Assembly (NCBI GenBank): GCA_965218795.1
Contig: OZ244653.1
Coordinates: 3,424,001-3,488,000 of the forward strand
Direction of reading: 5' to 3'
Length of the DNA stretch: 64,000 nt
Origin: a bacterium
GTDB taxonomy: Bacteria; UBA8248; JACPRG01; G963555815
Part shown: piece after piece, positions 5,281-37,816 of the stretch
Position numbering within the stretch: position 1 is the first letter of the stretch
Layout: each line of letters begins with the position of its first letter
Notes under the pieces: model-generated
Told to the model about the DNA's origin: nothing
Database searches by the model: none
The model's input: the letters and a program-made list of their open reading frames with translations, nothing else
Position numbers and translations under genes: made by a program

Positions 5281-5436
5281 CGAATCCCTTCGGTTCTTGA
5301 CACGTATGACCATCTCTCGGAAACTATCTCTCTGACTATGGTCACTCAGGCGGCCCGGCGAAGGAATAGCGGTTCACCGACTCCAAGCCTTCCGCGGGTC
5401 ATCTTGTTTATTCATTCAAAAACGGAGAGGTGCGCC

Positions 5437-7299
5437 GTGTGGACCGATTCGACAAACGAAGAGAAAACCCCACAAGACCACAAGTACCGACAAGTCTGGG
5501 CGGATCTGAGACAGGGTACGTTCCGGGAGGAAATCAAGACTTGCAAAGACGCGGAAGACCTCCTCGCCGGGATCGGCCGGTCCTTCAAGCTGCTTCAGGA
5601 TTACGACGTGATCGATCCCTACGCGCCCGAATCCCCTCTGATCATGAATCTCGGTCTGTTTTCCGGTACGGACGTCATGACCGGCCTGCGTACATTCTTC
5701 AGTGCCTACAGCCCCCTCAAGACCTCCAAAACCGGCATGCCGTCAGCCATGTGGAGCGCCGCCTCCGGGAAGTTCGGCACCAAGCTAGCCTGCGCGGGCG
5801 TGGATGAAATGATTTTCACGGGCCGCTGTGAGAAGTGGAGCTATCTGGTCATCGAAGGCGATAAGGAATCCCGGTCTTTCACGCTGCACGACGCCTCGGA
5901 AATCATGGGGATGACCACTCATGAAAAGATCCTGTGGCTCGCCGACCGTTACGAGGACGCCCACTTCGGTGTCTTGGGTCCTTCGGGCGAAAACTGGCAG
6001 GGGAACCGCTTCGCCGGGATCGCCATCAGCACCGAGAACCAGCTGAAATCCCGGGACCCGAAGCCGCGATTCGCCGGTCGGGGCGGCATGGGAAATTTGA
6101 TGGGATCAAAGAATCTGGTCGCTATCGCGGCCAAGGCGCCCGACCCGAAGGGCCGGGTGTCGCCGGTCATCAAGGCCGTGAACGTAGAGGTCTCCCGGGG
6201 CGACGGCTCGCGCAACTACCGCGACAAGCGAAAAAACAACGGCGCAGGCGGGACGTGGCGAAATTATCCGCCCCTTCATAAGGCGGGCATCCTGCCGGAG
6301 AACAACTTCAGGCCGCAGGGAGCCGAGGGGCCGGCCAACCAGTACCGGGACACCTTCGAGGAAAGCTACTACGTCAAGGACGAGTCGTGCTTCAAATGCG
6401 GAATCGCCTGCCACAAAAACGTCTACGAGGCCGTGGAGGAAAACGGGAAGAAAAAGCCCGGCGAGTTTTTCGTCAAGCTCGACTACGAGCCCATGAACCT
6501 GATGTCGACCAACCTGGGCATCTATGATCAGGCCCAAACGCTCGAAGCCGTGGAGCTGACGGACGATATGGGGTTCGACTCGATCAGCCTGGGGGTGATT
6601 CTGGGATACGCCATGGAATACAACGAGCGGCGGGACCAGGGCGCCCCGGGCGAAAAGATTCTCGGCGGCATCAAATTCGGCGATTTCGAAGCGATCGTGG
6701 ACCTCACACGCCGCTGCGCCCAGGGCGATCTTCCCCAACTCGGCCAGGGCGTGATGCGGCTGTCCGAAGAACTGGGCGAGACCGACTACGCCATGCACTG
6801 CAAAGGGGTGGAGCTTCCGGCCTACCTGCCCGAGACCAACCCCGGCTATCCTTTCGCCATCGCCGGCGGCCACATGTCCATGCGCACCTTCCTCTTCCTC
6901 GTTTTCGAGGAGGAGACATCGCTCGACTACTGGGAGGACGCCATCCTCAACCGGGGAATCCACTATACCCGGGACGACCTGATCGGCACCTGCAAATTCG
7001 CCGGCACGCCCGACAGCTTCATCCTGGACGCCATCAAAGACTGGACCGGCGTCCCCATGACGGAACAGGAACTGCAGGACGGCGTGATGCGAACGTACCT
7101 GCGGGGACTGTTGCTTGAGCGGAAGCAGGGATTCACGGACGAAGACTACGTCCTGCCGGAGCGCGTGTACGAACGGCAGGAACACATCAAGGTGCCGCAG
7201 TTCATCACGCCGGAATTCTGGACGGAACTCCGCAGCCGCGTTCTGAAAGGCTTCGATGAGCGCATCGAAGAATTCGGCCTGGTCACGGCGGTGTCGTAG
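5437..7299 (+). CDS. Tungsten-type aldehyde:ferredoxin oxidoreductase family protein
   Basis: FAGRGGMG, MGSKNL, Fe-S motif SCFKCGIAC plus GTCKF, LDYEP, DDMGFDSIS. GTG at 5437 has a GGAGAGG SD (ORF extends to 5338). Confidence 0.85.
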   Translation: MWTDSTNEEKTPQDHKYRQVWADLRQGTFREEIKTCKDAEDLLAGIGRSFKLLQDYDVIDPYAPESPLIMNLGLFSGTDVMTGLRTFFSAYSPLKTSKTGMPSAMWSAASGKFGTKLACAGVDEMIFTGRCEKWSYLVIEGDKESRSFTLHDASEIMGMTTHEKILWLADRYEDAHFGVLGPSGENWQGNRFAGIAISTENQLKSRDPKPRFAGRGGMGNLMGSKNLVAIAAKAPDPKGRVSPVIKAVNVEVSRGDGSRNYRDKRKNNGAGGTWRNYPPLHKAGILPENNFRPQGAEGPANQYRDTFEESYYVKDESCFKCGIACHKNVYEAVEENGKKKPGEFFVKLDYEPMNLMSTNLGIYDQAQTLEAVELTDDMGFDSISLGVILGYAMEYNERRDQGAPGEKILGGIKFGDFEAIVDLTRRCAQGDLPQLGQGVMRLSEELGETDYAMHCKGVELPAYLPETNPGYPFAIAGGHMSMRTFLFLVFEEETSLDYWEDAILNRGIHYTRDDLIGTCKFAGTPDSFILDAIKDWTGVPMTEQELQDGVMRTYLRGLLLERKQGFTDEDYVLPERVYERQEHIKVPQFITPEFWTELRSRVLKGFDERIEEFGLVTAVS

Positions 7300-8668: not shown

Positions 8669-8717
8669 GCGTCCTCTTTCACGGCTGAGGAAGTTTGTTG
8701 CCGGGTGTCATTCGATT

Positions 8718-8729
8718 TTGTCATGACAA
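8718..8729. promoter_or_regulatory. FadR/GntR-type operator palindrome TTGTCATGACAA
   Basis: Perfect 12-bp palindrome 50 bp upstream of the dehydrogenase start, near a GntR gene. Confidence 0.45.
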
Positions 8730-8782
8730 CCTCCACAACATGAAAAACAGGGAATTATACGCTTGATTCGCCAAGTTTTTTT

Positions 8783-8893
8783 CTGGATTCCTGCTTGCGC
8801 AGGAATGACAATCAGAACCATGCTGGTCCCCAAGCGACCCCGCCCCCCCGCGAGCAACAGGCGGGGGTCATTCCCGCGGAAGCAGGAATCCAT
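8783..8893. repeat. Inverted pair of GTCATTCC..GGAATCCA REP-like palindromes
   Basis: ctggattcctgcttgcgcaggaatgac (8783-8809) and gtcattcccgcggaagcaggaatccat (8867-8893). The same family recurs at 60349, 61921 and 62022. Confidence 0.8.
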
Positions 8894-9089
8894 CTTGAGG
8901 GAGCCATTGACTTGCGCGGCACCTGACGATCTCGAAGCGAGGTACGAGTCAACCGAACCGCCATGCGCACATAAAGCGGGATGAAACCAGAATACTAAAT
9001 TCCGGCTCCGCAGGGAAGTTTTCAACCAGAGAACGGGGGGAGTGCGAAGGATCGGCTTCTGCCGGCCATCCAATTGCAGTCATGGCGCT

Positions 9090-9818
9090 TCAGGAGGATC
9101 GGCGTTCCTTCGCGCGGGCAAGACCCGGCGTCTGATCCATCAAGGAAAGAAACGCCCGTTCCTGGTTTTTGAGGTGCCGGCTCACCCGTCGTTCCGCTTT
9201 GAGGGAGTCGCGACGGATAAGGGCGGAGAGGATGCCCTTGTGCTCCCGCATGGATTGGTCCAGCCGATCGGGCACGCCGTGAGAGAGGATTCGCGTCTTG
9301 ACGATCTGGGACCGCACCTGCTCTACCAATTCCAGCAATCGGAGATTTCCGGATGCCTCTACAAAGGTGCGGTGGAAAAGATGATTGTAATGGTAGTAGC
9401 CGTCGATGTCGCCCGTCCGTCTGCACTCCTCCAATGCGTTGGTGGTCTCGCGCAAGCGCTTCAGGTCTTCCTCCGAAATCCGCTCGGCCGCCAGCCGGGC
9501 CGCCAGCCCCTCCAAAACGCCCGCGACGGCATACAGATCGCGGACATCTTCCTCGGTCGGCCGGCTCACGAACGCCCCCTTGTGGGGGACAAGCGAGATA
9601 TACCCCTGGGCCTCGAGCTCTTTGAGGGCCTCCCGAACGGAGGTGCGGCTCACGCCGAACGTGGCGGTCAAATCCTTTTCGACCAGCCGGTGTCCGGCCC
9701 CCAATCGGCCTTCGAGAATGGCCTCCCGGATTTGGGAGGCGACCACCCGGCTCATCGGCCGGGGACGGACTTCCTCGAATCCGGCAAGAATCGAACGCGC
9801 AGACGTCCTCTTCGCCAT
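9090..9818 (-). CDS. GntR family transcriptional regulator (FCD domain)
   Basis: HTH RLVEKDLTATFGVSRTSVREALKELEAQG; FCD histidines NHLFH, EHKGI and HL. Confidence 0.92.
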   Translation of the reverse strand: MAKRTSARSILAGFEEVRPRPMSRVVASQIREAILEGRLGAGHRLVEKDLTATFGVSRTSVREALKELEAQGYISLVPHKGAFVSRPTEEDVRDLYAVAGVLEGLAARLAAERISEEDLKRLRETTNALEECRRTGDIDGYYHYNHLFHRTFVEASGNLRLLELVEQVRSQIVKTRILSHGVPDRLDQSMREHKGILSALIRRDSLKAERRVSRHLKNQERAFLSLMDQTPGLARAKERRSS

Positions 9819-9821
9819 GGC

Positions 9822-11012
9822 TCAAACGACCCCTTCATCCCGCAGGGCCTGAATCTCATCCACCGAGAAATTCAAAACCCCCTGCAGCACTTCATCCGTA
9901 TGCTCGCCGAGCAGCGGCGGCGGTGAATGGACCCCGGCGGGCGTGTCGGAAAGCTTTACGGGGGCGCCCGTGAGCTTCGTCTTCCCGGCGACCGGATGAT
10001 CCACTTCGACCACCATACCCCTCGCCAGCACCTGAGGATGCGTGAGAACCTGGTCCAGCGTGTTGATGGAGCCGCACGGAATGCCGGCCTCGTTCAGCCT
10101 GTCGAGCCAGAAAGAGCGTGGCTGCGCCCTGAGGATCTCCCCCAACTCTTCCTTCAACTCATCGTGGTTCCGGACGCGGTTCGCGTTGGTTTCATACCTG
10201 GCGTCATGCGCCCAATCGGGCCGGTCGATGACATCGCAAAACTTGACCCACAAGGAGTCATTGCCCACCCCGAGATTGATGAACCCGTCCGCGCATGCAA
10301 GCGTTTCATAAGGGACGATACTCGGATGGGCGTTCCCGAGCCGCTTGGGGGGATTTCCAGTGGAAAAATAGATCCCCGCCTGATAGGTCAGCAGGGCCAC
10401 CTGGCCGTCCAGCATGCCGATGTCCACCTTCTGGCCTTTTCCCGTCCGCGCGCGCGCGATCAGCGCAGCCAGGACCCCGTGGCAGGCCAGCATCCCCGCG
10501 GTGATATCGGCGATGGAGGCTCCGACTTTGGCGGGCTGGCCGTCCGGCTCTCCGGTCAGGCTCATGATCCCGCCTTCGCCCTGAATCACCACGTCGTAGC
10601 CGGGCCGGTCCTGAAGCGGTCCCGTGTGCCCGAAGCCCGAGATCGAAGCGTAGACCATGCGCGAATTGATTTCATGGATACGGTCATAGCCGAAGCCCAG
10701 CTTCTCCATCGTTCCCGGCCGGAAGTTCTCGACGACCACATCGGACCGTTCGATCAGCCGGGTGAGAATCGTCTTCCCCTTCTCCGCCTTCAGGTTGAGC
10801 GTGAGGCTCTTTTTATTACGGTTGATGCTCATGAAATAAGAGCTCTCGCCATTCACGAAGGGGGGGCCCCAGGCCCGAGTGTCATCCCCCGTGCCGGGAA
10901 GCTCCACCTTGACGACCTCGGCCCCCAGGTCCGCCAGCATCATGGTGGCGTACGGACCCGCGAGGATTCGGGTGAGATCGAGAACAAGGGTGCCTTCCAA
11001 TGCGCCGGACAT
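9822..11012 (-). CDS. Family III CoA-transferase (CaiB/BaiF)
   Basis: VLDLTRILAGPYATMMLADLGAEVVKVE, NRNKKS, ENFRPG, GYD, and catalytic Asp in IADITAG. Confidence 0.93.
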   Translation of the reverse strand: MSGALEGTLVLDLTRILAGPYATMMLADLGAEVVKVELPGTGDDTRAWGPPFVNGESSYFMSINRNKKSLTLNLKAEKGKTILTRLIERSDVVVENFRPGTMEKLGFGYDRIHEINSRMVYASISGFGHTGPLQDRPGYDVVIQGEGGIMSLTGEPDGQPAKVGASIADITAGMLACHGVLAALIARARTGKGQKVDIGMLDGQVALLTYQAGIYFSTGNPPKRLGNAHPSIVPYETLACADGFINLGVGNDSLWVKFCDVIDRPDWAHDARYETNANRVRNHDELKEELGEILRAQPRSFWLDRLNEAGIPCGSINTLDQVLTHPQVLARGMVVEVDHPVAGKTKLTGAPVKLSDTPAGVHSPPPLLGEHTDEVLQGVLNFSVDEIQALRDEGVV

Positions 11013-11038
11013 CTACAATCCTCCGAAATCAAACACCG

Positions 11039-12163
11039 TTATCCTCCCACCAGTGACAGCAGGACGCCGGCTGCGATGGCCGATCCGATCACTCCGGCGA
11101 CATTCGGCCCCATGGCGTGCATCAGCAGAAAGTTGTGACGGTCCGCATCCTGGCCGACCTTCTGGACAACCCGGGCGGCCATGGGAACAGCCGAAACCCC
11201 CGCCGCGCCGATGAGGGGGTTCATGGGCTCTTTGGAGAACGCAGCCATGAGTTTCCCGAAGAGGACGCCCGCAGCCGTCCCGATGGAAAAGGCGATAAAA
11301 CCCAGGACGATAATGAAAAGGGTCTCCAGGTTCAGGAACTGCTTCGCCGTCATCGAAGCGCCGACGGAAAGGCCGAGAAAGATCGTCACCATGTTGAGCA
11401 TTTCGTTCTCCGAAGCCCTCAAGAGGCGGTCCACAACCCCGCACTCCCGGAACAGGTTGCCCAGCATGAGCATTCCGACCAGAGGGGCCGAGGAGGGAAG
11501 AAGAAGGCCCGTAAAGAACAGGGTCACAATCGGGAACAGAATTCGCACCGTCTTGGAAACCTGTTTTCGCTGCACCATCACGACCTTCCTTTCCTCATCC
11601 GACGTCAGGAGCTTCATGATGGGAGGCTGAATGATGGGAACCAGCGCCATGTAGGAATAGGCCGCCACCGCCACCGGGCCCAGCAGATGAGGCGCCAACT
11701 TGGAAGTCAGGTAGATGGCCGTGGGGCCGTCGGCGCCGCCGATGATTCCGATCGAGCTCGATTCCGGAAGGTTGAACCCCAGGAGAATGGCCCCGATGAG
11801 CGTCCCGAAGATACCGAATTGCGCGGCCGCTCCCAGCAGGATGGTTTTCGGGTTGGCCAGGAGGGGCCCGAAATCCGTCAGGGCCCCGACGCCCAGGAAA
11901 ATCAGCGGCGGGAAGATCCCCGCCTTGACGCCGAAATAGAAGAAATGCAAGAGGCCTCCCTCTTCGAACATGCCGCCCAGGGGGAGGTTCGACAAGATCG
12001 CACCGATGCCGATGGGAAGGAGCAGGAGCGGCTCGAATCCCTTTTTGATCGCCAGATAGACCAGAACGGCTCCGACCAGCAGCATCGTGGCGGATTGCCA
12101 CGTGAGATTCGCAAATCCCGTCTGCCCCAGGAACCGGATGATGCCATGGCCCAGGCTGTCCAC
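11039..12163 (-). CDS. mmdB: Na+-translocating decarboxylase beta subunit (MmdB/GcdB/OadB)
   Basis: [62 protein letters not shown]. Confidence 0.95.
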
Positions 12164-12186
12164 TTGTTATCGTCTCCCGATACGAC

Positions 12187-12594
12187 TCAATCCGGGTCAA
12201 TCCGGACCAGAAGCTGACCGCCGTTTACTTTGTCGCCCGGGTTGACCAGGATCTCGGCCACGGTGCCGGCCTGGTCCGCGACGACCCGGGTCTCCATCTT
12301 CATCGCCTCCAGGACGCAGACGACCGTGTCCGGTTTAACCGGGTCCCCCACCTTGACCATCACCTTGAGAATGGCGCCCGGCAATGGCGAGACGACTCCG
12401 CCCGCGCCGGCCGCCGGGCGGGGACGAGGACGAGCGGCCGAAACCGGCGCGGCGCCGGCCGCCGATTCCTCGGCAACCACCTCGACCAAATGCTCCACGC
12501 CGTCCACCAACACCCGAAGCTGATCGGGACTCTCCGTATCCTCGACGGTCACTTCGTAGGTGATGTTCTTGTGCGTGATGGTGAACTTCTTCAA
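12187..12594 (-). CDS. mmdC: Biotin carboxyl carrier subunit of Na+-translocating decarboxylase
   Basis: TTG at 12594 overlaps the upstream TGA. KKFTITHKNITYEVTVE N-terminus, Ala/Pro linker, biotinylation motif EAMKME. Confidence 0.9.
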   Translation of the reverse strand: MKKFTITHKNITYEVTVEDTESPDQLRVLVDGVEHLVEVVAEESAAGAAPVSAARPRPRPAAGAGGVVSPLPGAILKVMVKVGDPVKPDTVVCVLEAMKMETRVVADQAGTVAEILVNPGDKVNGGQLLVRIDPD

Positions 12595-12950
12595 ACCCGA
12601 TCTCCCCCCGCGTAGGCGTCCGCCCTGGAAAGGGCGGCCACCCGACCGTCCATCACCCACTTGGATCGGTCGGGACGCTTCACGTCCACCATGAACACCT
12701 GAGCGGACTGCGCCTTCAGATAGGCCCCGACGGCAGCAGTGATGACCGGCAACAGCTCCTCTTCTCCGGCCCCGCCGACGGGCGTAGCCGCAACTCCCGC
12801 AGCCGGCTCTCCGGCCGGGGCCGGGCCGCCTTCCCATATCGAGGCCAACCCATCCAGCACGCGGATCAAAACGGCCAAGGCAATCAGCGAGAGGAAAACC
12901 GTCCCCATTCCAATGATTATCAGCATGATCCCCTGGCCCATCAGGCTCAC
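12591..12950 (-). CDS. mmdD: OadG/MmdD-like membrane subunit of Na+-translocating decarboxylase
   Basis: GTG at 12950 with GGAAGGAG SD. Single TM GMGTVFLSLIAL, Ala/Pro linker, VITAAV, KWVMDGR. Confidence 0.85.
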   Translation of the reverse strand: MSLMGQGIMLIIIGMGTVFLSLIALAVLIRVLDGLASIWEGGPAPAGEPAAGVAATPVGGAGEEELLPVITAAVGAYLKAQSAQVFMVDVKRPDRSKWVMDGRVAALSRADAYAGGDRV

Positions 12951-13045
12951 GGATGAATCTCCTTCCAGTGAATGACGCTCCGCCGCCCACGGCGATACAC
13001 CGCGCCGTGAGCCGGAGAAAGCCGCCATCCACCCAGCGCTGAGAA

Positions 13046-14617
13046 TTACAAGGGGATGTTCCCGTGCTTCTTTCGGGGGCGGCTTTCCCGCTTGCCCTGG
13101 AGCATCTCCAGCGCGCGCAACAGCTCCCGGCGTGTGTACCGGGGCTCGATGATGGAATCCACATAGGACAATGCCGCGGCCGAGTAGGGCGTGCAGAACT
13201 TCTTCCGGAACTCCTCGATCAGCTCCTGCCGCTTGGCCTCGGGGTCGGAGGCTTCCGCAATCTCCCGCCGGAAGATGATGTTGGCCGCGCCTTCCGGACC
13301 CATCACGGCGATCTCAGCCGTGGGATAGGCCAACACGCGGTCAAATCCCATATCCCGGTTACTGAAGGCGATATAGGCGCCGCCGTACGCCTTCCGCACG
13401 ATGATGCTGATCTTCGGGACGGTGGCCTCCGAGTAGGCAAACAAAATCTTGGCCCCATGCCGGATAATCCCGCCGAACTCCTGCTGCGACCCGGGCAGGA
13501 ACCCCGGAACGTCGACAAGCGTGATAACCGGCAGATTGAAGCTGTCGCAAAAACGGACCATTCGGGCCACCTTGTCCGAAGAGTCGATGTCCAGGACGCC
13601 GGCCAAGACCGAAGGCTGGTTGGCGACGACCCCCACCGGTTGACCTCCCAGCCGCGCAAATCCGACGACTGCGTTCTTGGCGAAATCCGGTTGAACCTCG
13701 AGAAAATCAGAGTGGTCGAAAACTCCCTCGATCAGGTCGTGCACGTCATAGGGCTCGGTTTGGCGGGCGGGTATCAGTTCATTCAGAGCCTCATTTTCTA
13801 CCGGGGGGTAATCGGGGGGATCGCTCCGCGGGGGATCGTCCACGTTGTTCGAGGGCAGAAAGCTCAGGAGCTTCTTGACCATCGACAAGCATTCCTTTTC
13901 GTTGGTCGGAGTGAAATGGGCGACGCCGCTCACGCCGCCATGAACCCCCGCACCCCCGAGCTCCTCCAAGGTGATGTCTTCTCCCGTCACGGCCTTGATT
14001 ACGTCAGGGCCCGTCACGAACATGTTGCTGATGCCAGGGACCATGAAGATGAAATCGCAGATGGCCGGCGAGTAGACGGCGCCTCCCGCGCAGGGGCCGA
14101 GTATCACCGCAATCTGCGGAATGACGCCCGAGGCTTGGGTGTTTCGACGGAAGATGTTTCCGTACCCGTTGAGGGAGCTCACTCCTTCCTGAATGCGGGC
14201 TCCGCCCGAGTCGTTGATCTGGATGAACGGGCACCCCGCGCTCATGGCGAGGTCCATGGCCCGGCAGATCTTCGCCGCATGCATCTCACCCAGCGAGCCG
14301 CCCAGGGCCGTGAAATCCTGGGAAGAGAAGTAGACGAGGTTGCCGTCGATCTTTCCCGCCCCGGTTACAACACCGTCGCCCGCGTAGCGGCGCTTATCCA
14401 TCCCGAAATCAGAGTTGCGCGTCTCGGCGAAAGCATCGAGCTCGACAAAGGTTTCTTCGTCCAGAAGGAATTCGAGGCGCTCCCGCGCGGTCATTTTGCC
14501 ACGCTCGCGCTGCTTCTTGATGGCCTCGCGACCTCCGCCCAGACGAGCCTGTTCCGCCCGCTGCCGCAATTCATCTGACAGAGACTTCACGCCTGATTCC
14601 CTCTTTTCCCGTTCCAT
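13046..14617 (-). CDS. mmdA: Acyl-CoA (methylmalonyl-CoA-type) decarboxylase alpha / carboxyltransferase subunit
   Basis: GKMTARER, DSGGARIQEG, GPCAGGAVYSPA, DVPGFLPG, RKAYGGAY, KKHGNIPL. Start is ATG 14617 or GTG 14590, because the promoter lies over the annotated 14701 start. Confidence 0.9.
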   Translation of the reverse strand: MEREKRESGVKSLSDELRQRAEQARLGGGREAIKKQRERGKMTARERLEFLLDEETFVELDAFAETRNSDFGMDKRRYAGDGVVTGAGKIDGNLVYFSSQDFTALGGSLGEMHAAKICRAMDLAMSAGCPFIQINDSGGARIQEGVSSLNGYGNIFRRNTQASGVIPQIAVILGPCAGGAVYSPAICDFIFMVPGISNMFVTGPDVIKAVTGEDITLEELGGAGVHGGVSGVAHFTPTNEKECLSMVKKLLSFLPSNNVDDPPRSDPPDYPPVENEALNELIPARQTEPYDVHDLIEGVFDHSDFLEVQPDFAKNAVVGFARLGGQPVGVVANQPSVLAGVLDIDSSDKVARMVRFCDSFNLPVITLVDVPGFLPGSQQEFGGIIRHGAKILFAYSEATVPKISIIVRKAYGGAYIAFSNRDMGFDRVLAYPTAEIAVMGPEGAANIIFRREIAEASDPEAKRQELIEEFRKKFCTPYSAAALSYVDSIIEPRYTRRELLRALEMLQGKRESRPRKKHGNIPL

Positions 14618-14689
14618 GCGGAATTTCGCGCCGAAGTGCGAGTGAGAGCCCCTCGGTCGCCACTTGGGGAAAAATGACTGGATTGAATG

Positions 14690-14726
14690 ATTATCAGACA
14701 ATAAGACAATCTACATTGCAAGTCAA
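14690..14726 (-). promoter_or_regulatory. Sigma70 promoter TTGACT-17-TATTGT for the decarboxylase operon, with overlapping GntR-like box
   Basis: -35 at 14726-14721 and -10 at 14703-14698. The AGACAAT direct repeat and ATTATCAGACAAT near-palindrome overlap the -10. Confidence 0.55.
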
Positions 14727-15183
14727 GCCACCTGCGCTGATAGCTGCGAAAAAGAGGGCGAGGCCTTCCTCTACTCGGTGATTCCCGGATTTGGGGTAAG
14801 CCGCTCTGGGGCAGGCGGGGCCCGCACTGCTGTCGCCGGGCATGAGGGCAAATGATTTTCGATTTCTCCTGATAACCCGGCGACAGGGGCGCGCTGCCCC
14901 CGAGAAGCGCCCCCCTGAAAATCCCCTTTGATCCGGCACTGCGAAATCGCGGAGGCGCGTTGCCTGCCCCAATATCCCCCTGAAATGGAGCTCCATCATC
15001 TCTGGCGTCCGCTCGAACCGGGGATCACTGTGAGTGTCCTGCACCCTTGACCGCAGACCGGCGAATATGCGGAAATGTAACGAATTATCATTTTCGTGTA
15101 CGATGTGTACGAATCGCTCTGCACTTGGAAGGATCATTTGGCCGAGGGTAAATCCGTTTGCCCGATTCGGCGGGGAGGCCCGA

Positions 15184-15843
15184 ATGAAGATTATCGATCT
15201 GAGCCTGGATACCCAAGATCAGGTTCCGGTACCGCCTTCGGTTCCACAAATCGTGAAGATGACGACTGCGTTTCGCAAGCCGACCCACTGGCAGGCTACT
15301 TGGGTGTCATTTTCCGCGCATACCGCTTCTCACTGCGACTCGGCCCTGCACGTCCTCGCTCGGAAGGCGCCGATCAACAAGGTTCCGCTGGAAAAGTTCG
15401 TCGGGGAAGCCGTCATGCTCGACTTGACCCAGAAGGGCAGGAAAAATGCGGAAATCACGCTTGAGGACGTCAAGAAATACGACAAAGTCCCGAAAAAGAA
15501 CGATATCATCGTGATGCGAACGGATTGGGGGCGCAAAAAGTTCGGGAAAACCGAGTACTATACAGACTCCCCTTACATCAACGAGGATGTGGCGCGGTGG
15601 CTGGTGAGCAAGAAGCCGAAGGCCATCGGGTTCGACTTTTTCGAGGAGTACAACGCGAGGCTGAAGGACTTCAAACCGGCGGATTTCATCGTACACCGGA
15701 TTATGATGGGAGCGGGAATCTTCCTCATCGAGGGGATAACGAATCTGCATCTGGTCAAGAAAAGGCGCTTCATGCTGCACGCGGCTCCCATCAAGCTGAA
15801 AGACTGCGAAGCAGCGCCTGCGCGTATTTATGCTGTGGTGTAA
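15184..15843 (+). CDS. Cyclase family (kynurenine formamidase-like) metal hydrolase
   Basis: MKIIDLS start after GGGGAGG; HTASHCDSALH metal motif; IEGITNL; APIKL..AAPAR. Confidence 0.85.
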   Translation: MKIIDLSLDTQDQVPVPPSVPQIVKMTTAFRKPTHWQATWVSFSAHTASHCDSALHVLARKAPINKVPLEKFVGEAVMLDLTQKGRKNAEITLEDVKKYDKVPKKNDIIVMRTDWGRKKFGKTEYYTDSPYINEDVARWLVSKKPKAIGFDFFEEYNARLKDFKPADFIVHRIMMGAGIFLIEGITNLHLVKKRRFMLHAAPIKLKDCEAAPARIYAVV

Positions 15844-15989
15844 CCGATTTCTTCGCTCTGCGGTTTGGCGATAGTTTTCACTGCGGATTGGATTTCAGGG
15901 CAGCTATCGGTCAAGCGCCGTACCCACCAACAACGGAATACAGTTTGAACGTAATGGGGCGAACTGCGCCCGGATGGAGGCGACTTCGG

Positions 15990-16709
15990 ATGAAAGGCGT
16001 CACGATTGTCGATCTATCGCAGCCTATCTACCAGGGGATGCCGGTCTATCCCGGCCACGTGAAAACCGTCATTTTCACCAATCCCACCCACGACGAAACC
16101 CGGAGAATGAAAAAGGATTTCTCCTACGAATGCCGCGGCATCCTGATGAGCGATCACGGCCCGACGCATCTGGATGCCATCAACCACCTGACGCCGGATC
16201 CCAGCGCCGCCTCCATCGATCAAATTCCCCTGGAGACCTTCCTCACGCCGGCCATCTGCCTGGATGTCTCGCATGTGGGCTCGCAGGCCGCCATCACGAA
16301 GTCCGACCTGGAAGAAGCTCTCAAGAAACACAACCTGACCATCGAGCAAGGAGACACAGTCCTTCTCTGGACGGGTCACTACGACCGGAATTACGGGAAA
16401 AATGAAAATATCGAGTGGCTCTACGAATATCCCGGCCTGGACCGGGAGGCCACCGAGTGGCTTCACGACCAGGGGTGCGTCAACATCGGCGTGGACGCCC
16501 CGAGCATCGATAACTTCAAGGACACGACCTATCCCGCCCACCACGTCTGCCTGGAGCGGAAGATGATCAACACCGAGAACCTCTGCAATCTTGACCAGGT
16601 GGCGGGTAAGCGGTTTGTCTTCAGTGGGCTCCCGCTGAAGATCATCGAGGGGACCGGGTCGCCCATCCGGGCGGTGGCCCTGCTCTTCAATGGGGAATTC
16701 GGTCAGTAA
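15990..16709 (+). CDS. Cyclase family metal hydrolase, second paralog
   Basis: IVDLSQPIYQGMPVYPG, HGPTHLDAINH, GVDAPSID, ENLCNL, GTGSPIRAVA; GGAGG SD. Confidence 0.88.
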   Translation: MKGVTIVDLSQPIYQGMPVYPGHVKTVIFTNPTHDETRRMKKDFSYECRGILMSDHGPTHLDAINHLTPDPSAASIDQIPLETFLTPAICLDVSHVGSQAAITKSDLEEALKKHNLTIEQGDTVLLWTGHYDRNYGKNENIEWLYEYPGLDREATEWLHDQGCVNIGVDAPSIDNFKDTTYPAHHVCLERKMINTENLCNLDQVAGKRFVFSGLPLKIIEGTGSPIRAVALLFNGEFGQ

Positions 16710-16822: not shown

Positions 16823-17980
16823 ATGGACGTTGCGAGGATGCGCTTTTCCAATCGGGTCTGGTTCGGACCCGGATGTACGGAGAGGCTCGAGGAGGAATCC
16901 AAGACACTCGGGGCCAAACGCGCCCTGGTCATCTCCGATGAAGGGATCAAGAACGCCGGCCTCCTCGAACGCGCCCTGGACCCGCTCCAAGGCGCCGGTG
17001 CGGAGGTGGAAGTCTATACCGATGTCACTCCCGAGCCTCCCATCGAGGATCTGGAGAAGTGCTTCGAGGCCTACCGGAAGGAGAATTTCGATCTGGTCGT
17101 CGGTGTCGGGGGCGGAAGCCCGCTCGACGTGGCGAAATCGATGAGCGTCCTCCTGGCGAACGGCGGAGAGGTTCGCGACTACCTGGGCATCGACCTCGTC
17201 CCCAACCCGGGCCTGCCCTCCATCCTCATACCGACCACCGCCGGAACAGGCGCTGAGGCGACGCCCAACGCAATCTTTTCCATCGAAGAGGAAAAGGTCA
17301 AAAAGGCTATCGTCAGCTCGCACATCATCGCGAACGTCGCCGTACTGGACCCGGAACTCACGTTGGGCCTGCCGCCCGCGCAGACCGCGGCCTCCGGAGT
17401 CGATGCCCTCACCCACTGTCTGGAAACTTACGTCGCCCTCAATGCGACGCCTATCTCGGAGATGTTCTCCATAGAGGGGATGCGCCTCATCGCGGGCAGC
17501 ATCCGCCGGGCCGTCCACAACGGAAAAGACCTCCAGGCGCGGGCCGATATGCTGCTCGGAAGTTATTACGGCGGGGTCTGTCTCGCCGGGGCCAGCGCCG
17601 GAGCGATCCATGCACTCTCGTATCCGCTGGGCGGCCGGTACCACGTTCCCCACGGCGTCAGCAACGCGATGCTCTTCCCCCACGTGATGGAGTTCAACTT
17701 CCTCGGGAACCTGGAAAAGTTCGCCGGCATCGCGGAATTTCTGGGCGAGGAAGTGGATGGACTTTCGCTGAGGGAAGCGGCGGAGACCTCGGTCGACGCG
17801 GTCCGAACGCTCTGCGAGGATGTAAACATCCCCACGACGCTCAAGGAACTGGATATCGACGCTTCGGCGATCCCGGAGTTGGCTGAGGCCGCTTCGCTGA
17901 TCACGCGGATCCTCGATTTCAACCCCCGCCGAATGACGAAGGACGATATCATCCGGGTCTACGAACGCGCCGCGGAATAG
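16823..17980 (+). CDS. Iron-containing (class III) alcohol dehydrogenase
   Basis: GVGGGSPLDVAK, IPTTAGTGAEAT, DALTHCLE, HALSYPLG..HVPHG. Confidence 0.93.
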   Translation: MDVARMRFSNRVWFGPGCTERLEEESKTLGAKRALVISDEGIKNAGLLERALDPLQGAGAEVEVYTDVTPEPPIEDLEKCFEAYRKENFDLVVGVGGGSPLDVAKSMSVLLANGGEVRDYLGIDLVPNPGLPSILIPTTAGTGAEATPNAIFSIEEEKVKKAIVSSHIIANVAVLDPELTLGLPPAQTAASGVDALTHCLETYVALNATPISEMFSIEGMRLIAGSIRRAVHNGKDLQARADMLLGSYYGGVCLAGASAGAIHALSYPLGGRYHVPHGVSNAMLFPHVMEFNFLGNLEKFAGIAEFLGEEVDGLSLREAAETSVDAVRTLCEDVNIPTTLKELDIDASAIPELAEAASLITRILDFNPRRMTKDDIIRVYERAAE

Positions 17981-20644: not shown

Positions 20645-20993
20645 TTGCAGGGATTCATCCGGCATCGGGTTGCGAAGGGCTCTACGGTTTACACGGACGA
20701 TCATGGCGGGTATTCTGAGCTTTGGATGGATTTCAGGCATGAAGCCGTCCGACACAGCCGAGAATTCGTTCGCGATCAAGCTCACGCCAATGGGATCGAG
20801 TCTTTCCGGGCAATGCGCAAGAGCGGTGACTACGGCGCTTATCACCGCATGAGCGAGAAACACTTGAACCGCTGCGTCACGAAGTTCGCGGGGGCGGCGC
20901 AATATCCGCAATCGGGACACTGCCACACAGATAGCCTCAATTGTCAAAGGCATGATCGGCAAGCGGCTCCGCTATCGGGATTTGGCGGCGTGA
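20645..20993 (+). mobile_element. IS1595-family (ISXO2-like) transposase remnant
   Basis: GSTVYTDD..HANGIESF..YHRMSEKHLNRC, then after a frameshift near 20890 RRNIRNRDT..MIGKRLRYRDLAA*. The N-terminus is missing. Confidence 0.8.
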
Positions 20994-21022
20994 GTATCCT
21001 AAGCCCGCAGGAGGGTCACGGA

Positions 21023-21903
21023 ATGGGAGGGAGGGAGCAAGCGGTTCCTGCGGTGAATGCCACGGGAACGGGGCGTCGTATTGCCCGTCGAAGTTCGGTT
21101 CGTCGTTCTAAACGGTTGATTGCGTTTGGTTGGTACGGCGGAAAATTCAGCCATCTGGATTTTATCCTTCCCCATATCCCGCCCGACGCCTTGCATTTTT
21201 GCGATGTCTATGGGGGGTCCGCTGCGGTTCTTTTGAATCTTCCTCCGTACCCCGTCGAAACCTACAACGACCTCGATTCAGAGTTGGTGAACTTCTTCCA
21301 TACGCTTCGCAATCAAGGCGCGAAGCTCATGAAAGCGATCAGCTTGACTCCGTTTTCACGGGAAGAGTTAGTGCGGGCCTGTGAGCCGGAGGAAGGATTA
21401 TCCCGGCTGGAGCGCGCCCGACGCTTCTATGTCCGCGCCCGCCAAACACGGACGGGGCTTGCCCAGAAAAGCAGCCGCGGGCGTTGGGCGCATTGCGTAC
21501 TCACGTCACGTGCTGGAATGGCCGGCGCGGTGTCCCGGTGGCTCGGGTCCGTAGAGGGGCTTCCAGAAGTAGTCCAGCGGCTCCAGCGCATCCAGATCGA
21601 GAATGCTCCTGCTCTTGACGTCATCCGCCGATACGATACGGCAGAAACCGTCTTTTACCTTGATCCGTCCACTCCGTGCGCGGAGATTCAGCAGCGTATG
21701 GCTATGAAATGACCGATGCGGACCACGAAGAACTCGCCGACACCCTTCAAGGCGTTCGGGGGCGGATCATTCTTTCCGGCTATGGAACGCCGCTCTATGA
21801 TCGCTTGTACAAGGGCTGGAGACGTGTCGATGCTTCTGTTCGGATTTGTCATTCGGTACGGAAATCCCGCCAAGAGTCGCTGTGGATGAACTTCGGGCCA
21901 TGA
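21023..21903 (+). pseudogene. Dam/D12-class N6-adenine DNA methyltransferase, frameshifted
   Basis: FGWYGGK, DVYGGSAAV, YNDLDSELVNFF, IQIEN. YLDP lacks PY and the C-terminus (EMTDADH..LSGY..ESLWMNF) continues in another frame from ~21670. Confidence 0.85.
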
Positions 21904-25256: not shown

Positions 25257-26711
<1,455 letters not shown>

Positions 26712-26782
26712 TCAACAACCCGGCCCGGCGATTCATCTTGATGAAGACAAGTCAACGGAGCCGGCGGGTCTCCATCCGTCCC

Positions 26783-27682
26783 TTACCCGGATAAAGCATC
26801 CGCCCCGCTGACGACCTCAATGAGCTCCGTCGTAATCTTCGCCTGACGCTGGCGGTTGAAGAGAAGGGTCAGGCTGCCGATCATTTCCTTCGCGTTGTTC
26901 GACGCATTATCCATCGCCGTCATGCGCGCGCCGTGCTCGCTGGCATCGGCATCCAGGATGACCCGGTACATCTGCGTATAGAGATGCCGATCGATCAGTT
27001 TCTCCAGAACGGCCTCGGGCGACGGCTCATAGATGAAATCCGGCTCGAATCCCGTTTCTCCTTCCTCTTCTTCCACAACCGGGGGCTTGATGGGTAGCAA
27101 CGTCTCGACCGTTACGCGCTGAATCAGGGTGGACCGGAACCGGTTATAAACCAGAATCACCTCATCCGCCCGGCCTTCGGTGAACTCCTCGACAAAGTAT
27201 TCTCCGAGCGCCTTGGCCAGGTCATAGTCCATCCTGCCGAAATTTCCGATGAACTCCTTCTCGATGGGATAGCCCCGGTAGTGGCAGATATCACGGCCCT
27301 TCTTTCCGATGGGCGCCACCGCCAGGAATGGAGTCTCCTCCGAGGCGTCCTCCTCCGATATCGCGCCGTCCTGTATCAGCTCGGCCAGGCCTCGGATGAT
27401 ATTGGTGTTGTAGACCCCGCACAGCCCCTTGTCGGAAGTGATGGGCACCAGGAGACGGCGCTTGACCGGCCGCCTTTCCATCAGCGGGTGGGACAGATGC
27501 TCGGACCGTTTCGCCAGGCTCTGCAGCACCTCATTGAGCTTGTCGGCGAAGGGACGCGCCGCCGTGATGCGGTCCTGAGCCCGGCGCAGCTTGGCCGCGG
27601 CCACCAGCTTCATGGCGCGAGTGATTTTTTCCGTATTTTTGACGCTGCCAATGCGCCGCTTGATCTGTCTCAGGCTTGCCAT
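26783..27682 (-). CDS. atpG: F1 ATP synthase gamma subunit
   Basis: KITRAMKLVAAAK, DKGLCG, SEHGARMTAM, RQAKITTEL. Confidence 0.98.
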   Translation of the reverse strand: MASLRQIKRRIGSVKNTEKITRAMKLVAAAKLRRAQDRITAARPFADKLNEVLQSLAKRSEHLSHPLMERRPVKRRLLVPITSDKGLCGVYNTNIIRGLAELIQDGAISEEDASEETPFLAVAPIGKKGRDICHYRGYPIEKEFIGNFGRMDYDLAKALGEYFVEEFTEGRADEVILVYNRFRSTLIQRVTVETLLPIKPPVVEEEEGETGFEPDFIYEPSPEAVLEKLIDRHLYTQMYRVILDADASEHGARMTAMDNASNNAKEMIGSLTLLFNRQRQAKITTELIEVVSGADALSG

Positions 27683-27697
27683 GCGCAGATCATCCCT

Positions 27698-29314
<1,617 letters not shown>

Positions 29315-33225: not shown

Positions 33226-33280
33226 GCTTTTCTCTTACTGTGAAATGGACCCAATACTCGGGTTCCAAGGGGAAAATTCT

Positions 33281-37291: not shown

Positions 37292-37816
<525 letters not shown>

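What the first reader, a model, noticed from the sequence alone, without database searches (positions are those of the whole stretch)
9090..14617. Self-contained Na+-pumping decarboxylase + family III CoA-transferase operon
Seen: alpha-delta-biotin carrier-beta genes followed directly by a CaiB/BaiF CoA-transferase and GntR. No methylmalonyl-CoA mutase or epimerase is in the window. Established: MmdABCD/GcdABCD pump Na+ during acyl-CoA decarboxylation, and the characterised systems I know use class I CoA-transferases. Inference: a two-step, ATP-free cycle in which the transferase moves CoA from the product acyl-CoA onto a (substituted) malonate that is then decarboxylated, generating Na+ motive force.
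Basis: partly seen in the sequence, partly recalled or inferred. Interest (0 to 1): 0.7.

Follow-up and report, generated by a model that had tools for sequence, protein, structure and literature searches.

The report
Sodium-pump acyl-CoA decarboxylase with CoA-transferase
A tightly packed six-gene operon encodes a sodium-coupled, biotin-dependent (methyl)malonyl-CoA decarboxylase together with a CoA-transferase and its own regulator, and it appears to be the only biotin enzyme of a bacterium that lacks the usual acetyl-CoA carboxylase, so it may make, not only break, malonyl-CoA.

Summary
Window 9090-14617 (minus strand) is a tight six-gene operon: MmdA-like carboxyltransferase, OAD_gamma-type anchor, biotin carrier, OAD_beta Na+ pump, family III CoA-transferase and GntR/FCD regulator. 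It sits behind a conserved promoter/operator.

The linkage is conserved. In 36 of 39 related genomes with the pump gene, the transferase lies directly beside it.

It is not shown here. 'Self-contained' is doubtful, because a B12 mutase and an epimerase lie elsewhere in the genome.

The larger finding is that this complex is the genome's only detectable biotin enzyme. The genome is 98.9% complete, in one contig, and has FabD. It shows no biotin carboxylase, no AccA/AccD and no OadA-type subunit. The pump is kept in 49 of 51 genomes of the phylum.

I favour (0.4) a reversible complex that the Na+ gradient drives as an acetyl-/propionyl-CoA carboxylase. Nothing was assayed.

The parts
14678..14726 (-). 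Promoter-like site (TTGACT, 17 nt, TATTGT; 14726-14698) overlapping a conserved operator-like box (14712-14682)
   Evidence: The consensus scan found the site, but the count was not above shuffles: 2 found, 1.5 expected. The block is invariant in 4 of 4 aligned upstream regions of the same family (window, L001, L002, L110), while the flanks are unconserved. The 31-nt box is unique in the 5.17 Mb genome at up to 8 mismatches. The 19-nt core is present with 0-1 mismatch in L001, L002 and L110. No such hit appeared in the 18 other loci scanned; three of them (L007, L012, L114) gave only 5-mismatch hits at other places.
13046..14617 (-). alpha: acyl-CoA:biotin carboxyltransferase of the PccB/MmdA/12S type (523 aa from ATG 14617; the longest ORF runs to TTG 14701)
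   Evidence: Pfam Carboxyl_trans 635.6 bits. TIGR01117 mmdA 797.8 bits, below cut-off 998.8. Best solved relative is T. maritima 1vrg at 693 bits; GcdA chains score 125 and 97 bits. Ile at the position of PccB residue 422. It is the only Carboxyl_trans match in the genome.
12591..12950 (-). delta: small membrane anchor (OAD_gamma family), GTG start behind an AGGAG
   Evidence: PF04277 OAD_gamma 50 bits, above cut-off 27. Hydrophobic N-terminal stretch in the translation. Start and ribosome-binding site read.
12187..12594 (-). biotin carboxyl carrier (135 aa) with a Pro/Ala linker and AMKM motif; its TTG start overlaps the delta stop (TTGA)
   Evidence: Biotin_lipoyl 70.4 bits. NCBIfam MmdC NF047903 54.3 bits, below cut-off 200. 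Junction read. At E<=1e-5, tblastn with this carrier matched no other place in the genome.
11039..12163 (-). beta: Na+-translocating carboxybiotin decarboxylase, membrane subunit
   Evidence: OAD_beta 530.9 bits. TIGR01109 520.7 bits, above cut-off 190.6. 423 bits to Salmonella OadB (6iva), with the residues aligned to D203, Y229, N373, G377, S382 and R389 identical (the roles of these residues are recalled). Single copy in the genome.
9822..11012 (-). family III (CaiB/BaiF) CoA-transferase, dicarboxylate branch
   Evidence: PF02515 468.7 bits. Best NCBIfam models are succinate-glutarate (391 bits, cut-off 750), CoA:oxalate (354, cut-off 522) and succinyl-CoA:mesaconate (345, cut-off 700), all below cut-off. 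Best solved relative is human SUGCT at 368 bits. Four paralogues at 42-52% identity and a fifth at 25% lie elsewhere in the genome.
9090..9818 (-). GntR-family regulator with FCD ligand domain (FadR subfamily)
   Evidence: GntR 62.6 bits and FCD 104.3 bits. No NCBIfam equivalog reached. Conserved at the operon end in L001-L007 and L012 at 39-81% identity.

Best explanation
The six genes form one operon under a local GntR repressor. They encode an MmdABCD-type complex plus a family III CoA-transferase.

In the complex, alpha moves the carboxyl group between an acyl-CoA and the biotin of the carrier. Beta couples carboxybiotin decarboxylation to Na+ movement across the membrane. Delta anchors the complex. 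These parts are shown by sequence.

Because this is the genome's only detectable biotin enzyme and only acyl-CoA carboxyltransferase, I infer that it is core metabolism and works reversibly:
- acetyl-CoA + CO2 <-> malonyl-CoA
- propionyl-CoA + CO2 <-> (S)-methylmalonyl-CoA

I propose that inward Na+ flow drives the carboxylating direction. This would supply malonyl-CoA to FabD and fatty-acid synthesis in place of the missing ATP-dependent acetyl-CoA carboxylase. It would also join propionyl-CoA to the epimerase and B12 mutase encoded elsewhere.

The transferase would exchange CoA between these thioesters and a free dicarboxylate such as malonate, methylmalonate or succinate. Direction, substrates and Na+ coupling are inferred, not shown.
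For: 1. Anatomy. All four Mmd-type subunits are intact, and the residues of beta aligned to the Na+-site residues of OadB are identical.

2. Substrate. Alpha has Ile (GGAYIA) where a strict propionyl-CoA carboxylase (8sgx) has Asp. The 'acetyl-CoA carboxylase complex beta-chain' 7w5u and T. maritima 1vrg have Ile; the 12S transcarboxylase subunit has Leu. That this position sets acetyl versus propionyl preference is recalled.

3. Sole biotin system in G000 (one contig, 98.92% complete):
- Carboxyl_trans: 1 match, which is alpha.
- ACCA: matches only alpha.
- Biotin_carb_C: 0 matches, while the control rang in 13 of 14 genomes.
- accC TIGR00514: 0 matches.
- tblastn with 18 ORFs from six relatives' biotin-carboxylase loci: no biotin carboxylase found.
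- PYC_OADA: 0 matches.

4. Need for malonyl-CoA. FabD scores 362.5 bits, above its 260.9 cut-off. FabD is present in 49 of 51 genomes of the phylum.

5. Core-gene behaviour across relatives:
- Beta is in 49 of 51 genomes of the phylum, with one match in each but G033, where the gene is split into two frames.
- Alpha is on the same contig within about 3 kb of beta in 36 of 39 genomes.
- 21 of 41 relatives have no Biotin_carb_C match at all. In 11 more the only match lies in a pyruvate-carboxylase-length frame.
- The 2.1 Mb genomes of genus g2 keep alpha-delta-carrier-beta while lacking the adjacent transferase and regulator.

6. The same pattern shows in the T. maritima control lines. Carboxyl_trans, OAD_beta and FabD ring, and Biotin_carb_C does not. 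PMC3199775 (passages) reports no ACC biotin carboxylase or ACC carboxyltransferase subunits in Thermotogales.

7. Reversibility in vitro is stated in the title of Dimroth & Hilpert 1984. I saw it only as a reference entry.

8. A mutase family gene is present in 41 of 41 relatives, and an epimerase in G000. Most have no ATP-dependent propionyl-CoA carboxylase partner.
Against: - No assay, expression data or flux data exist for any of this.
- All characterised enzymes of this type work as decarboxylases in vivo (recalled; reviews PMC8085960 and PMC8473912, passages).
- A substrate-type GntR/FCD repressor and a dicarboxylate CoA-transferase in the operon look more like an inducible catabolic unit.
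- The Fusibacter analogue with MadLM is plainly catabolic.
- Other sources of malonyl-CoA are not excluded. There are 16 acyl-CoA ligase-like matches in the genome, none above the cut-off of the model I recalled as malonyl-CoA synthase. The transferase itself could act on malonate. A 2-oxoacid:ferredoxin oxidoreductase could act on oxaloacetate (not tested).
- Nine or so relatives carry a second carboxyltransferase with a biotin carboxylase, yet they keep the operon.
- Absence calls rest on profile searches of one genome with 6.36% estimated contamination.
- The role proposed for the transferase under this reading is vague.
Confidence: 0.4

Rival explanations
1. The transferase loads CoA from acetyl-CoA (or propionyl-CoA) onto malonate (or methylmalonate). 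The complex decarboxylates the malonyl-/methylmalonyl-CoA, exports Na+ and regenerates the donor thioester. The net reaction is dicarboxylate -> monocarboxylate + CO2, with Na+ motive force and no ATP. The GntR regulator senses the acid.
For: - The linkage is conserved in 36 of 39 relatives.
- The transferase is in the dicarboxylate branch.
- Alpha is of the type that handles malonyl-/methylmalonyl-CoA, with Ile at the specificity position.
- Fusibacter ferrireducens L020 has transferase-MadL-MadM-alpha-delta-carrier-beta behind a sensor kinase and a sigma-54 activator.
- In the transferase tree, 5 of the 14 rows of the starred clade holding L020 have an alpha gene nearby.
- A dedicated repressor with a unique operator fits an inducible unit.
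- Growth by malonate decarboxylation is known for Sporomusa malonica and Malonomonas rubra (PMC8085960, passages). That S. malonica uses malonyl-CoA is recalled, not seen.
Against: - There is no transporter in the operon, and no MadM match in the genome (control silent).
- The operator is unique, so no co-regulated uptake gene was found.
- The Fusibacter transferase is not sister to this one.
- Genus g2 keeps the pump without the adjacent transferase.
- Near-universal single-copy retention in a phylum labelled as nitrite-oxidising autotrophs (record titles; PMC3578206) is unusual for a niche substrate pathway.
- This reading leaves the supply of malonyl-CoA for FabD unexplained.
Confidence: 0.25
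2. Classical succinate-to-propionate route, or its reverse for propionate assimilation. The transferase makes succinyl-CoA from succinate and propionyl-CoA. The mutase and epimerase encoded elsewhere give (S)-methylmalonyl-CoA. The complex decarboxylates it and pumps Na+.
For: - One MM_CoA_mutase family gene at G000 4330221-4331783, 750.7 bits.
- One epimerase above cut-off, 133.4 bits against 114.95.
- The mutase family is present in 41 of 41 relatives.
- Many family III enzymes use succinyl-CoA (names of the best models).
- Alpha is closest to the mmdA model.
Against: - The mutase and epimerase are about 0.9 and 2.1 Mb from the operon and were not shown to be co-regulated. The operator box is unique.
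- The specificity of the mutase (methylmalonyl versus other acyl-CoA mutases) was not examined.
- Known propionyl-CoA:succinate transferases belong to another family (recalled).
- A fermentative route is unexpected for the lineage, though the lifestyle of this family is unknown.
Confidence: 0.15
3. Oxaloacetate decarboxylase Na+ pump run backwards to carboxylate pyruvate, as proposed for Nitrospina gracilis (PMC3578206).
For: The beta and delta subunits belong to the OAD families. The proposal is in print for a member of the phylum (passages).
Against: - This genome has no PYC_OADA domain, and neither do 24 of 41 relatives.
- Where that domain occurs, it is never beside beta.
- The subunit encoded next to beta is an acyl-CoA carboxyltransferase in 36 of 39 genomes.
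- The HMGL-like gene upstream of alpha in the Nitrospinaceae-like genomes scores as HMG-CoA lyase (364.8 bits, cut-off 246) and only 47 bits on the oadA model.
- I could not see the paper's supplementary gene table.
Confidence: 0.03
4. Glutaconyl-CoA decarboxylase with a glutarate/glutaconate-activating transferase.
For: The best NCBIfam model for the transferase is succinate-glutarate CoA-transferase, 391 bits.
Against: Alpha scores 125 and 97 bits on the two GcdA structures against 693 on the PccB-like 1vrg. The transferase is far below the model's 750-bit cut-off.
Confidence: 0.02

Closest known systems
Methylmalonyl-CoA decarboxylase Na+ pump (MmdABCD(E)) of Veillonella and Propionigenium modestum (EC 7.2.4.3)
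   Same: Same four kinds of subunit: PccB-like carboxyltransferase, OAD_beta pump, small anchor, separate biotin carrier. The closest NCBIfam model for alpha is mmdA.
   Different: Alpha is below the model's cut-off, 797.8 against 998.8. The operon adds a family III CoA-transferase and a GntR regulator. The mutase and epimerase are unlinked. Here it is the only biotin enzyme of a genome without acetyl-CoA carboxylase. The gene orders of the reference systems are recalled, not compared here.
Thermotoga maritima PccB-like carboxyltransferase (PDB 1vrg) and its OAD_beta partner
   Same: It is the best solved relative of alpha, 693 bits, with the same Ile at the specificity position. T. maritima likewise rings for OAD_beta, Carboxyl_trans and FabD but not for Biotin_carb_C.
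   Different: T. maritima also has a PYC_OADA protein (control). Its gene neighbourhood and any linked transferase were not examined.
Malonate decarboxylase Na+ pump of Malonomonas rubra (Mad system, with MadLM uptake)
   Same: Biotin carrier, OAD_beta-type pump and activation of malonate as a thioester before decarboxylation (PMC8085960, passages). MadL and MadM occur in the analogous Fusibacter locus.
   Different: That system uses an acyl carrier protein, not CoA. Beta here scores 172 bits on the malonate-specific model TIGR03136, whose cut-off is 596.9. No MadM was found in this genome.
Dicarboxylate family III CoA-transferases: human SUGCT, E. coli YfdE, succinyl-CoA:mesaconate transferase
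   Same: Full-length matches of 321-368 bits to the solved SUGCT and YfdE and 345-391 bits to the NCBIfam models. EC 2.8.3.13 is listed as accepting malonyl-CoA as donor (table in PMC8085960).
   Different: The protein is below every curated cut-off, so it is an orthologue of none. No characterised member is known to me to be encoded with a Na+-pumping decarboxylase (recalled; one literature search found no paper holding both terms).
'Membrane-bound oxaloacetate decarboxylase' proposed for Nitrospina gracilis (PMC3578206)
   Same: Probably the same gene cluster. Nitrospinaceae-labelled loci L006 and L007 carry the operon. Each relative has one OAD_beta gene; it is split into two frames in G033.
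   Different: The partner of beta is an acyl-CoA carboxyltransferase, not an OadA. The proposed reversed, Na+-driven carboxylation would then act on acetyl-/propionyl-CoA rather than pyruvate. I did not examine the N. gracilis genome itself or the paper's supplement.

Membership tests
Na+-translocating methylmalonyl-CoA decarboxylase (MmdABCD type) | Carboxyltransferase subunit of the PccB/MmdA/12S clade | tested here: met
   Carboxyl_trans 635.6 bits. 693-608 bits to 1vrg, PccB, 1x0u and 12S.
Na+-translocating methylmalonyl-CoA decarboxylase (MmdABCD type) | Reaches the curated score of the mmdA model TIGR01117 | tested here: not met
   797.8 bits against cut-off 998.8. The Fusibacter alpha also falls short, at 930.6.
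Na+-translocating methylmalonyl-CoA decarboxylase (MmdABCD type) | OAD_beta membrane subunit with the conserved Na+-site residues | tested here: met
   TIGR01109 520.7 bits, above cut-off 190.6. Residues aligned to OadB D203, Y229, N373, G377, S382 and R389 are identical (their roles are recalled).
Na+-translocating methylmalonyl-CoA decarboxylase (MmdABCD type) | Small anchor subunit and separate biotin carrier with a biotinyl-lysine motif | tested here: met
   OAD_gamma 50 bits and Biotin_lipoyl 70.4 bits. AMKM is visible in the translation.
Na+-translocating methylmalonyl-CoA decarboxylase (MmdABCD type) | Na+-dependent decarboxylation of (S)-methylmalonyl-CoA with Na+ export | not testable with these tools
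   Needs membranes or proteoliposomes.
Glutaconyl-CoA decarboxylase (GcdABCD) | GcdA-type carboxyltransferase | tested here: not met
   125 bits (3gf3) and 97 bits (1pix), against 693 bits for 1vrg.
Oxaloacetate decarboxylase Na+ pump (OadABG) | OadA subunit (HMGL-like plus PYC_OADA domain) | tested here: not met
   PYC_OADA has 0 matches in G000, while the control rang in 7 of 14. None of the 17 matches in 41 relatives lies beside beta.
Biotin-dependent malonate decarboxylase of Malonomonas (Mad) | MadB-type beta subunit and MadLM carrier | tested here: not met
   TIGR03136 172.1 bits against cut-off 596.9. MadM has 0 matches in G000, but the control rang nowhere, so that half is inconclusive.
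Family III (CaiB/BaiF) CoA-transferases | Full-length CoA_transf_3 domain | tested here: met
   468.7 bits over residues 5-372, covering profile positions 1-366 of 366. The catalytic aspartate was not checked.
Named family III enzymes (succinate-glutarate, CoA:oxalate, succinyl-CoA:mesaconate, formyl-CoA transferases) | Reaches the curated equivalog score | tested here: not met
   391 against 750, 354 against 522, 345 against 700, 318 against 504.
GntR family, FadR/FCD subfamily | N-terminal GntR winged helix plus C-terminal FCD domain | tested here: met
   62.6 and 104.3 bits. No equivalog reached. The ligand is unknown.
ATP-dependent acetyl-CoA carboxylase (AccABCD or acyl-CoA carboxylase), considered as the missing alternative | Biotin carboxylase and AccA/AccD-type carboxyltransferases somewhere in the genome | tested here: not met
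   Biotin_carb_C 0 matches. accC 0 matches. tblastn with relatives' biotin carboxylase ORFs found none. Carboxyl_trans and ACCA match only alpha.

The most novel reading that the evidence does not exclude
A whole phylum, whose records are labelled Nitrospinota and which includes the main marine nitrite oxidisers, has no ATP-dependent acetyl-CoA carboxylase in most members. It makes malonyl-CoA for fatty acids with a Na+-gradient-driven, reversed Mmd-type pump. That would be a physiological 'sodium-motive acetyl-CoA carboxylase'. The complex earlier read as an oxaloacetate decarboxylase in Nitrospina would be this enzyme, and the same solution may serve Thermotogales. The linked family III transferase and GntR regulator would tune the malonyl-/methylmalonyl-CoA pool against free dicarboxylates.
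Probability: 0.35. Interest if true: 0.85.

Novelty: new variant of a known kind. Interest (0 to 1): 0.62.

Why it matters
[quoted passage not shown] A 2026 review states that malonyl-CoA is naturally made by acetyl-CoA carboxylase and lists only malonate assimilation and an engineered route as alternatives (PMC12799670, passages).

Suppose an ion gradient does this job in a globally important group of nitrifiers. Three things would follow:
- It would change their energy budget.
- It would give a further reason for their dependence on sodium.
- It would correct the annotation of their 'oxaloacetate decarboxylase'.

It would also offer an ATP-free carboxylation module for engineering.

To my recollection that pathway is known only biochemically.

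Either way, the operon is a compact and testable unit with its own regulator and operator.

Tried and rejected
**Glutaconyl-CoA and oxaloacetate readings.** Both were considered and rejected on subunit type.

**HMG-CoA lyase-like gene.** In the Nitrospinaceae-like genomes such a gene sits directly upstream of alpha. I considered a hydroxymethylglutarate or citramalate module, by analogy with a transferase-lyase pair in Chloroflexus that I recall. I set it aside for this window because no such gene adjoins the operon here. The nearest HMGL-like gene of that size lies 1.69 Mb away, about 2.3 kb from another transferase paralogue.

**Regulon search.** The operator box found no second site in the genome.

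**ORFs at 14694-15137 and 8708-9073.** Neither has a family match or a counterpart in related loci. I treat them as doubtful genes.

**Phylum-level comparison.** It could not test complementarity with acetyl-CoA carboxylase, because all 51 genomes held for the phylum belong to one class.

**Malonyl-CoA synthetase.** I recalled accession NF005702 as malonyl-CoA synthase; the tool printed only the label PRK07514.1. Its best match was 327 bits against a 558 cut-off. This does not exclude a divergent enzyme.

**Sequencing runs.** No RNA holder was listed. Thirteen runs from several studies hold half or more of the sampled words. A few runs labelled sponge metagenome hold shares near 0.2, which I did not lay and do not use. 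I did not use read laying, since only contigs were on offer and contigs cannot show expression.

**Literature.** None of the listed papers that I opened proposes a reversed Mmd-type complex as the physiological source of malonyl-CoA. One search found no paper holding both 'methylmalonyl-CoA decarboxylase' and 'family III CoA-transferase'. Subscription papers and supplements were not searchable. In particular, the gene table of PMC3578206 may name the Nitrospina genes.

Full report
**What is there.**
On the minus strand between 9090 and 14617 lie six genes with operon spacing.
- Alpha (13046-14617) is a Carboxyl_trans protein at 635.6 bits. Its best NCBIfam model is mmdA, at 797.8 bits against a curated cut-off of 998.8.
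- Delta (12591-12950) is an OAD_gamma-family anchor at 50 bits.
- The carrier (12187-12594) has a biotinyl domain and an AMKM motif.
- Beta (11039-12163) is an OAD_beta pump subunit at 530.9 bits. It also scores TIGR01109 520.7 bits against a cut-off of 190.6.
- Then come a family III CoA-transferase (9822-11012, 468.7 bits) and a GntR/FCD regulator (9090-9818).

Gaps between the genes are 95, 23, 26 and 3 nt, and the delta stop overlaps the carrier's TTG start. The mechanical ORF of alpha begins at a TTG at 14701.

**What kind of decarboxylase.**
Against solved structures, alpha scores 693 bits on the T. maritima PccB-like protein 1vrg. It scores 608-640 bits on Streptomyces PccB, the Sulfolobus 'MmdA' and the 12S transcarboxylase subunit. 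On the two glutaconyl-CoA decarboxylase alpha subunits it scores only 125 and 97 bits. It is therefore a (methyl)malonyl-CoA-type carboxyltransferase.

At the position aligned to PccB residue 422 it has Ile, in the motif GGAYIA. So do 1vrg and a chain deposited as acetyl-CoA carboxylase beta (7w5u). The 12S subunit has Leu and a propionyl-CoA carboxylase (8sgx) has Asp. That this residue sets acetyl versus propionyl preference is my recollection of work on PccB. If right, malonyl-CoA/acetyl-CoA should be accepted.

Beta aligns with Salmonella OadB at 423 bits. The residues aligned to D203, Y229, N373, G377, S382 and R389 are identical (their roles in Na+ coupling are recalled).

**The transferase.**
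Its best curated models are succinate-glutarate, CoA:oxalate and succinyl-CoA:mesaconate CoA-transferases, all far below cut-off. Its best solved relative is human SUGCT at 368 bits. It belongs to the dicarboxylate-handling branch but is an orthologue of no characterised enzyme. The genome holds four paralogues at 42-52% identity and a fifth at 25%.

**Is the linkage conserved?**
I fetched 80 loci by similarity to the transferase.
- Eight (L001-L007, L012; records labelled Nitrospinota, Nitrospinaceae or unclassified) carry alpha, beta, transferase and GntR in the same order.
- One more (Fusibacter, L020) carries alpha and beta.
- Seven others carry only an alpha-like gene.
- 71 show no beta within the flanks held.

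In whole genomes of relatives the picture is sharper.
- Beta is present in 39 of 41, as one gene each (split into two frames in G033).
- Alpha lies on the same contig within about 3 kb in 36 of those 39. In the other three, beta touches a contig end.
- The best transferase match lies within about 100 nt of beta in 36 of 39 (coordinates compared by hand).
- The exceptions are the two 2.1 Mb genomes of genus g2 and G024, where no match was listed on that contig.

All 51 genomes held for the phylum belong to one class, and 49 of them have beta.

In a tree of 85 transferases, the operon-linked ones form two starred clades of 3 and 6 rows. These may be one clade (support 76). The Fusibacter enzyme sits in a different starred clade with Firmicutes and Bacteroides sequences (quick method).

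The Fusibacter locus reads transferase, MadL, MadM (malonate/Na+ symporter families at 133.5 and 351.8 bits), alpha, OAD_gamma protein, carrier, beta. A Cache/PAS histidine kinase and a sigma-54 activator precede it. That is a plausible gene set for malonate uptake, CoA transfer and Na+-pumping decarboxylation of malonyl-CoA.

For the window it stays an analogy.
- The two transferases are not sisters.
- No MadM match was found in this genome, though the control genomes were silent too.
- The operon has no transporter.

**The regulator and its site.**
Upstream of alpha, four genomes of the family share an invariant block at window 14726-14678, amid unconserved flanks. It comprises a TTGACT -35 hexamer and a 31-nt box over the -10 region. 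The box is unique in the genome at up to 8 mismatches. It is absent from genus g2 and from the other family, whose GntR proteins are only about 40% identical. This looks like a dedicated repressor acting only on its own operon. Binding was not tested.

**Why 'self-contained' is doubtful.**
The genome has one MM_CoA_mutase family gene (750.7 bits, about 0.9 Mb away). It has one methylmalonyl-CoA epimerase above cut-off, 133.4 against 114.95. The mutase family is present in 41 of 41 relatives. The classical succinyl-CoA/propionyl-CoA route is thus available, with alpha as its only possible carboxyltransferase.

**The unexpected part.**
In this single-contig, 98.92%-complete genome:
- The Carboxyl_trans profile matches only alpha.
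- The ACCA profile matches only alpha.
- Biotin_carb_C and the accC model match nothing, while the controls rang in 13 and 14 of 14 genomes.
- tblastn with 18 ORFs from six relatives' biotin carboxylase loci finds no biotin carboxylase. Its only relevant hit was to the operon's own carrier.
- PYC_OADA matches nothing.

So no acetyl-CoA, propionyl-CoA or pyruvate carboxylase and no OadA subunit was detected. The operon encodes the only biotin enzyme found.

Yet FabD is present at 362.5 bits against a cut-off of 260.9, and in 49 of 51 genomes of the phylum. Malonyl-CoA is therefore needed.

Among 41 relatives:
- 21 have no Biotin_carb_C match.
- 11 have it only in a frame of 1157-1189 aa that also holds PYC_OADA, which is pyruvate carboxylase length.
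- 8 have it in a 331-581 aa frame. In at least 4 of these it lies beside a second carboxyltransferase.
- One more is a 638 aa frame.

Genus g2, with the smallest genomes, keeps alpha-delta-carrier-beta but not the adjacent transferase and regulator.

The T. maritima control shows the same pattern: FabD, OAD_beta and Carboxyl_trans ring, and Biotin_carb_C does not. Lombard and Moreira report no ACC-type biotin carboxylase or carboxyltransferase in Thermotogales (PMC3199775, passages).

**Most likely mechanism.**
I read the complex as a reversible Na+-coupled carboxyl-transfer machine and the core link between acetyl-CoA and malonyl-CoA, and between propionyl-CoA and methylmalonyl-CoA.
- Shown by sequence: the subunit set and its integrity.
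- Established elsewhere: enzymes of this type pump Na+ on decarboxylation (reviews). Their reversal carboxylates acetyl-CoA in vitro (title of Dimroth & Hilpert 1984, seen only in reference lists).
- Inferred: that in this organism the Na+ gradient drives carboxylation to feed FabD, and that the transferase exchanges CoA with a free dicarboxylate.

I put this at 0.4. The readings are not exclusive, since a reversible enzyme could serve all three.

**Relation to print.**
Lücker et al. proposed that Nitrospina gracilis replaces pyruvate carboxylase by a reversed membrane-bound oxaloacetate decarboxylase (PMC3578206, passages). In the genomes searched here, beta is always next to an acyl-CoA carboxyltransferase. 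OadA-type domains are absent from 24 of 41 genomes and are never adjacent to beta. The HMGL-like gene upstream of alpha in the Nitrospinaceae-like genomes scores as HMG-CoA lyase at 364.8 bits and only 47 bits on the oadA model. The same logic of reversal may therefore apply to acetyl-CoA rather than pyruvate. I did not examine that genome or its supplement.

My ten literature searches turned up no paper, among those I opened, that proposes this. A 2026 review of malonyl-CoA routes names only acetyl-CoA carboxylase as natural (PMC12799670, passages). This is not proof that the idea is unpublished.

**Limits.**
- Everything rests on sequence and profile searches.
- Absence calls could fail for very divergent proteins.
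- Contamination of the genome is estimated at 6.36%.
- Relatives are not independent samples.
- The tree used the quick method.
- No RNA run holding the stretch was listed.

Noticed in passing
window 25257-30738 and 31801-39906: An F-type ATP synthase gene set (beta, gamma, alpha, b) lies directly beside a V/A-type ATPase gene set (B, A, C/AC39, E, I subunits), both on the minus strand. Which ion each one uses was not examined. This bears on the Na+ economy that the decarboxylase would feed or draw on.
   Followed up: partly
window 40427-58028: This looks like the replication origin region. It holds parB, mnmG, mnmE, yidC and gyrB. ORFs of dnaA-, dnaN- and gyrA-like length lie at 50217-51578, 51761-52918 and 55503-58028; these were not scanned and are guessed from position. 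GC skew changes sign near 52 kb, where cumulative skew is lowest, and GC dips to 0.51 at 50-52 kb. The operon lies about 37 kb from it.
   Followed up: partly
window 20645-21712: One ORF combines a fragment of an IS1595/ISXO2-like transposase domain (profile positions 68-148 of 153) with a D12-class N6-adenine methyltransferase domain. It lies in a stretch of lower GC, 0.563.
   Followed up: no
window 5338-7299; L001 6337-8226: An aldehyde:ferredoxin oxidoreductase (AFOR_N and AFOR_C) lies downstream of the operon. It is also beside it in the closest relative locus at 88% identity. It hints at an anaerobic or low-oxygen lifestyle for this family.
   Followed up: no
L006 3637-4545; L003 3130-4053; L104-L109, L113-L115: In the other family of the class, an HMG-CoA lyase-like gene (364.8 bits, cut-off 246) sits upstream of alpha: directly in some loci, with one short ORF between in L104 and L108. 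Further upstream are conserved cyclase, MobA-like, Fe-alcohol dehydrogenase and phosphoribosyltransferase genes. The operon's far end abuts rplQ-rpoA. The cyclase and Fe-ADH genes also flank the operon in the window (15525-16709, 16823-17980).
   Followed up: partly
G028:C1:123117-126359; G011:C1:1031557-1034798; G034:C4:130201-133410: In several relatives, a more distant family III transferase paralogue (about 43% identity) lies about 0.5 kb from a second MM_CoA_mutase paralogue. This suggests another transferase-mutase module in the phylum.
   Followed up: no
G033:C1:2452224-2453266: In this single-contig relative, the beta gene matches in two overlapping frames (profile positions 2-189 and 187-348). 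This is either a frameshift or a sequencing error.
   Followed up: no
L010 7992-10986: In a Thermofontivivens-labelled genome, a homologous transferase is followed by a 589 aa protein with both Carboxyl_trans and ACCA domains (a fused AccD/AccA-like carboxyltransferase) and a zinc alcohol dehydrogenase. A PccB-like alpha lies 3 kb further on.
   Followed up: no
G000:C1:5111450-5126993: Two transferase paralogues (46% identity) lie 13 kb apart. An HMGL-like gene of HMG-CoA-lyase size (326 aa frame, 166.9 bits) lies between them, about 2.3 kb from one of them.
   Followed up: no
G011, G028, G009, G014, G007, G010, G016, G027, G040 (coordinates): In the other family, fabD lies on the same contig 12-30 kb from the operon in at least nine genomes. 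In the window's genome it is 380 kb away. Whether this loose proximity means anything was not tested.
   Followed up: no
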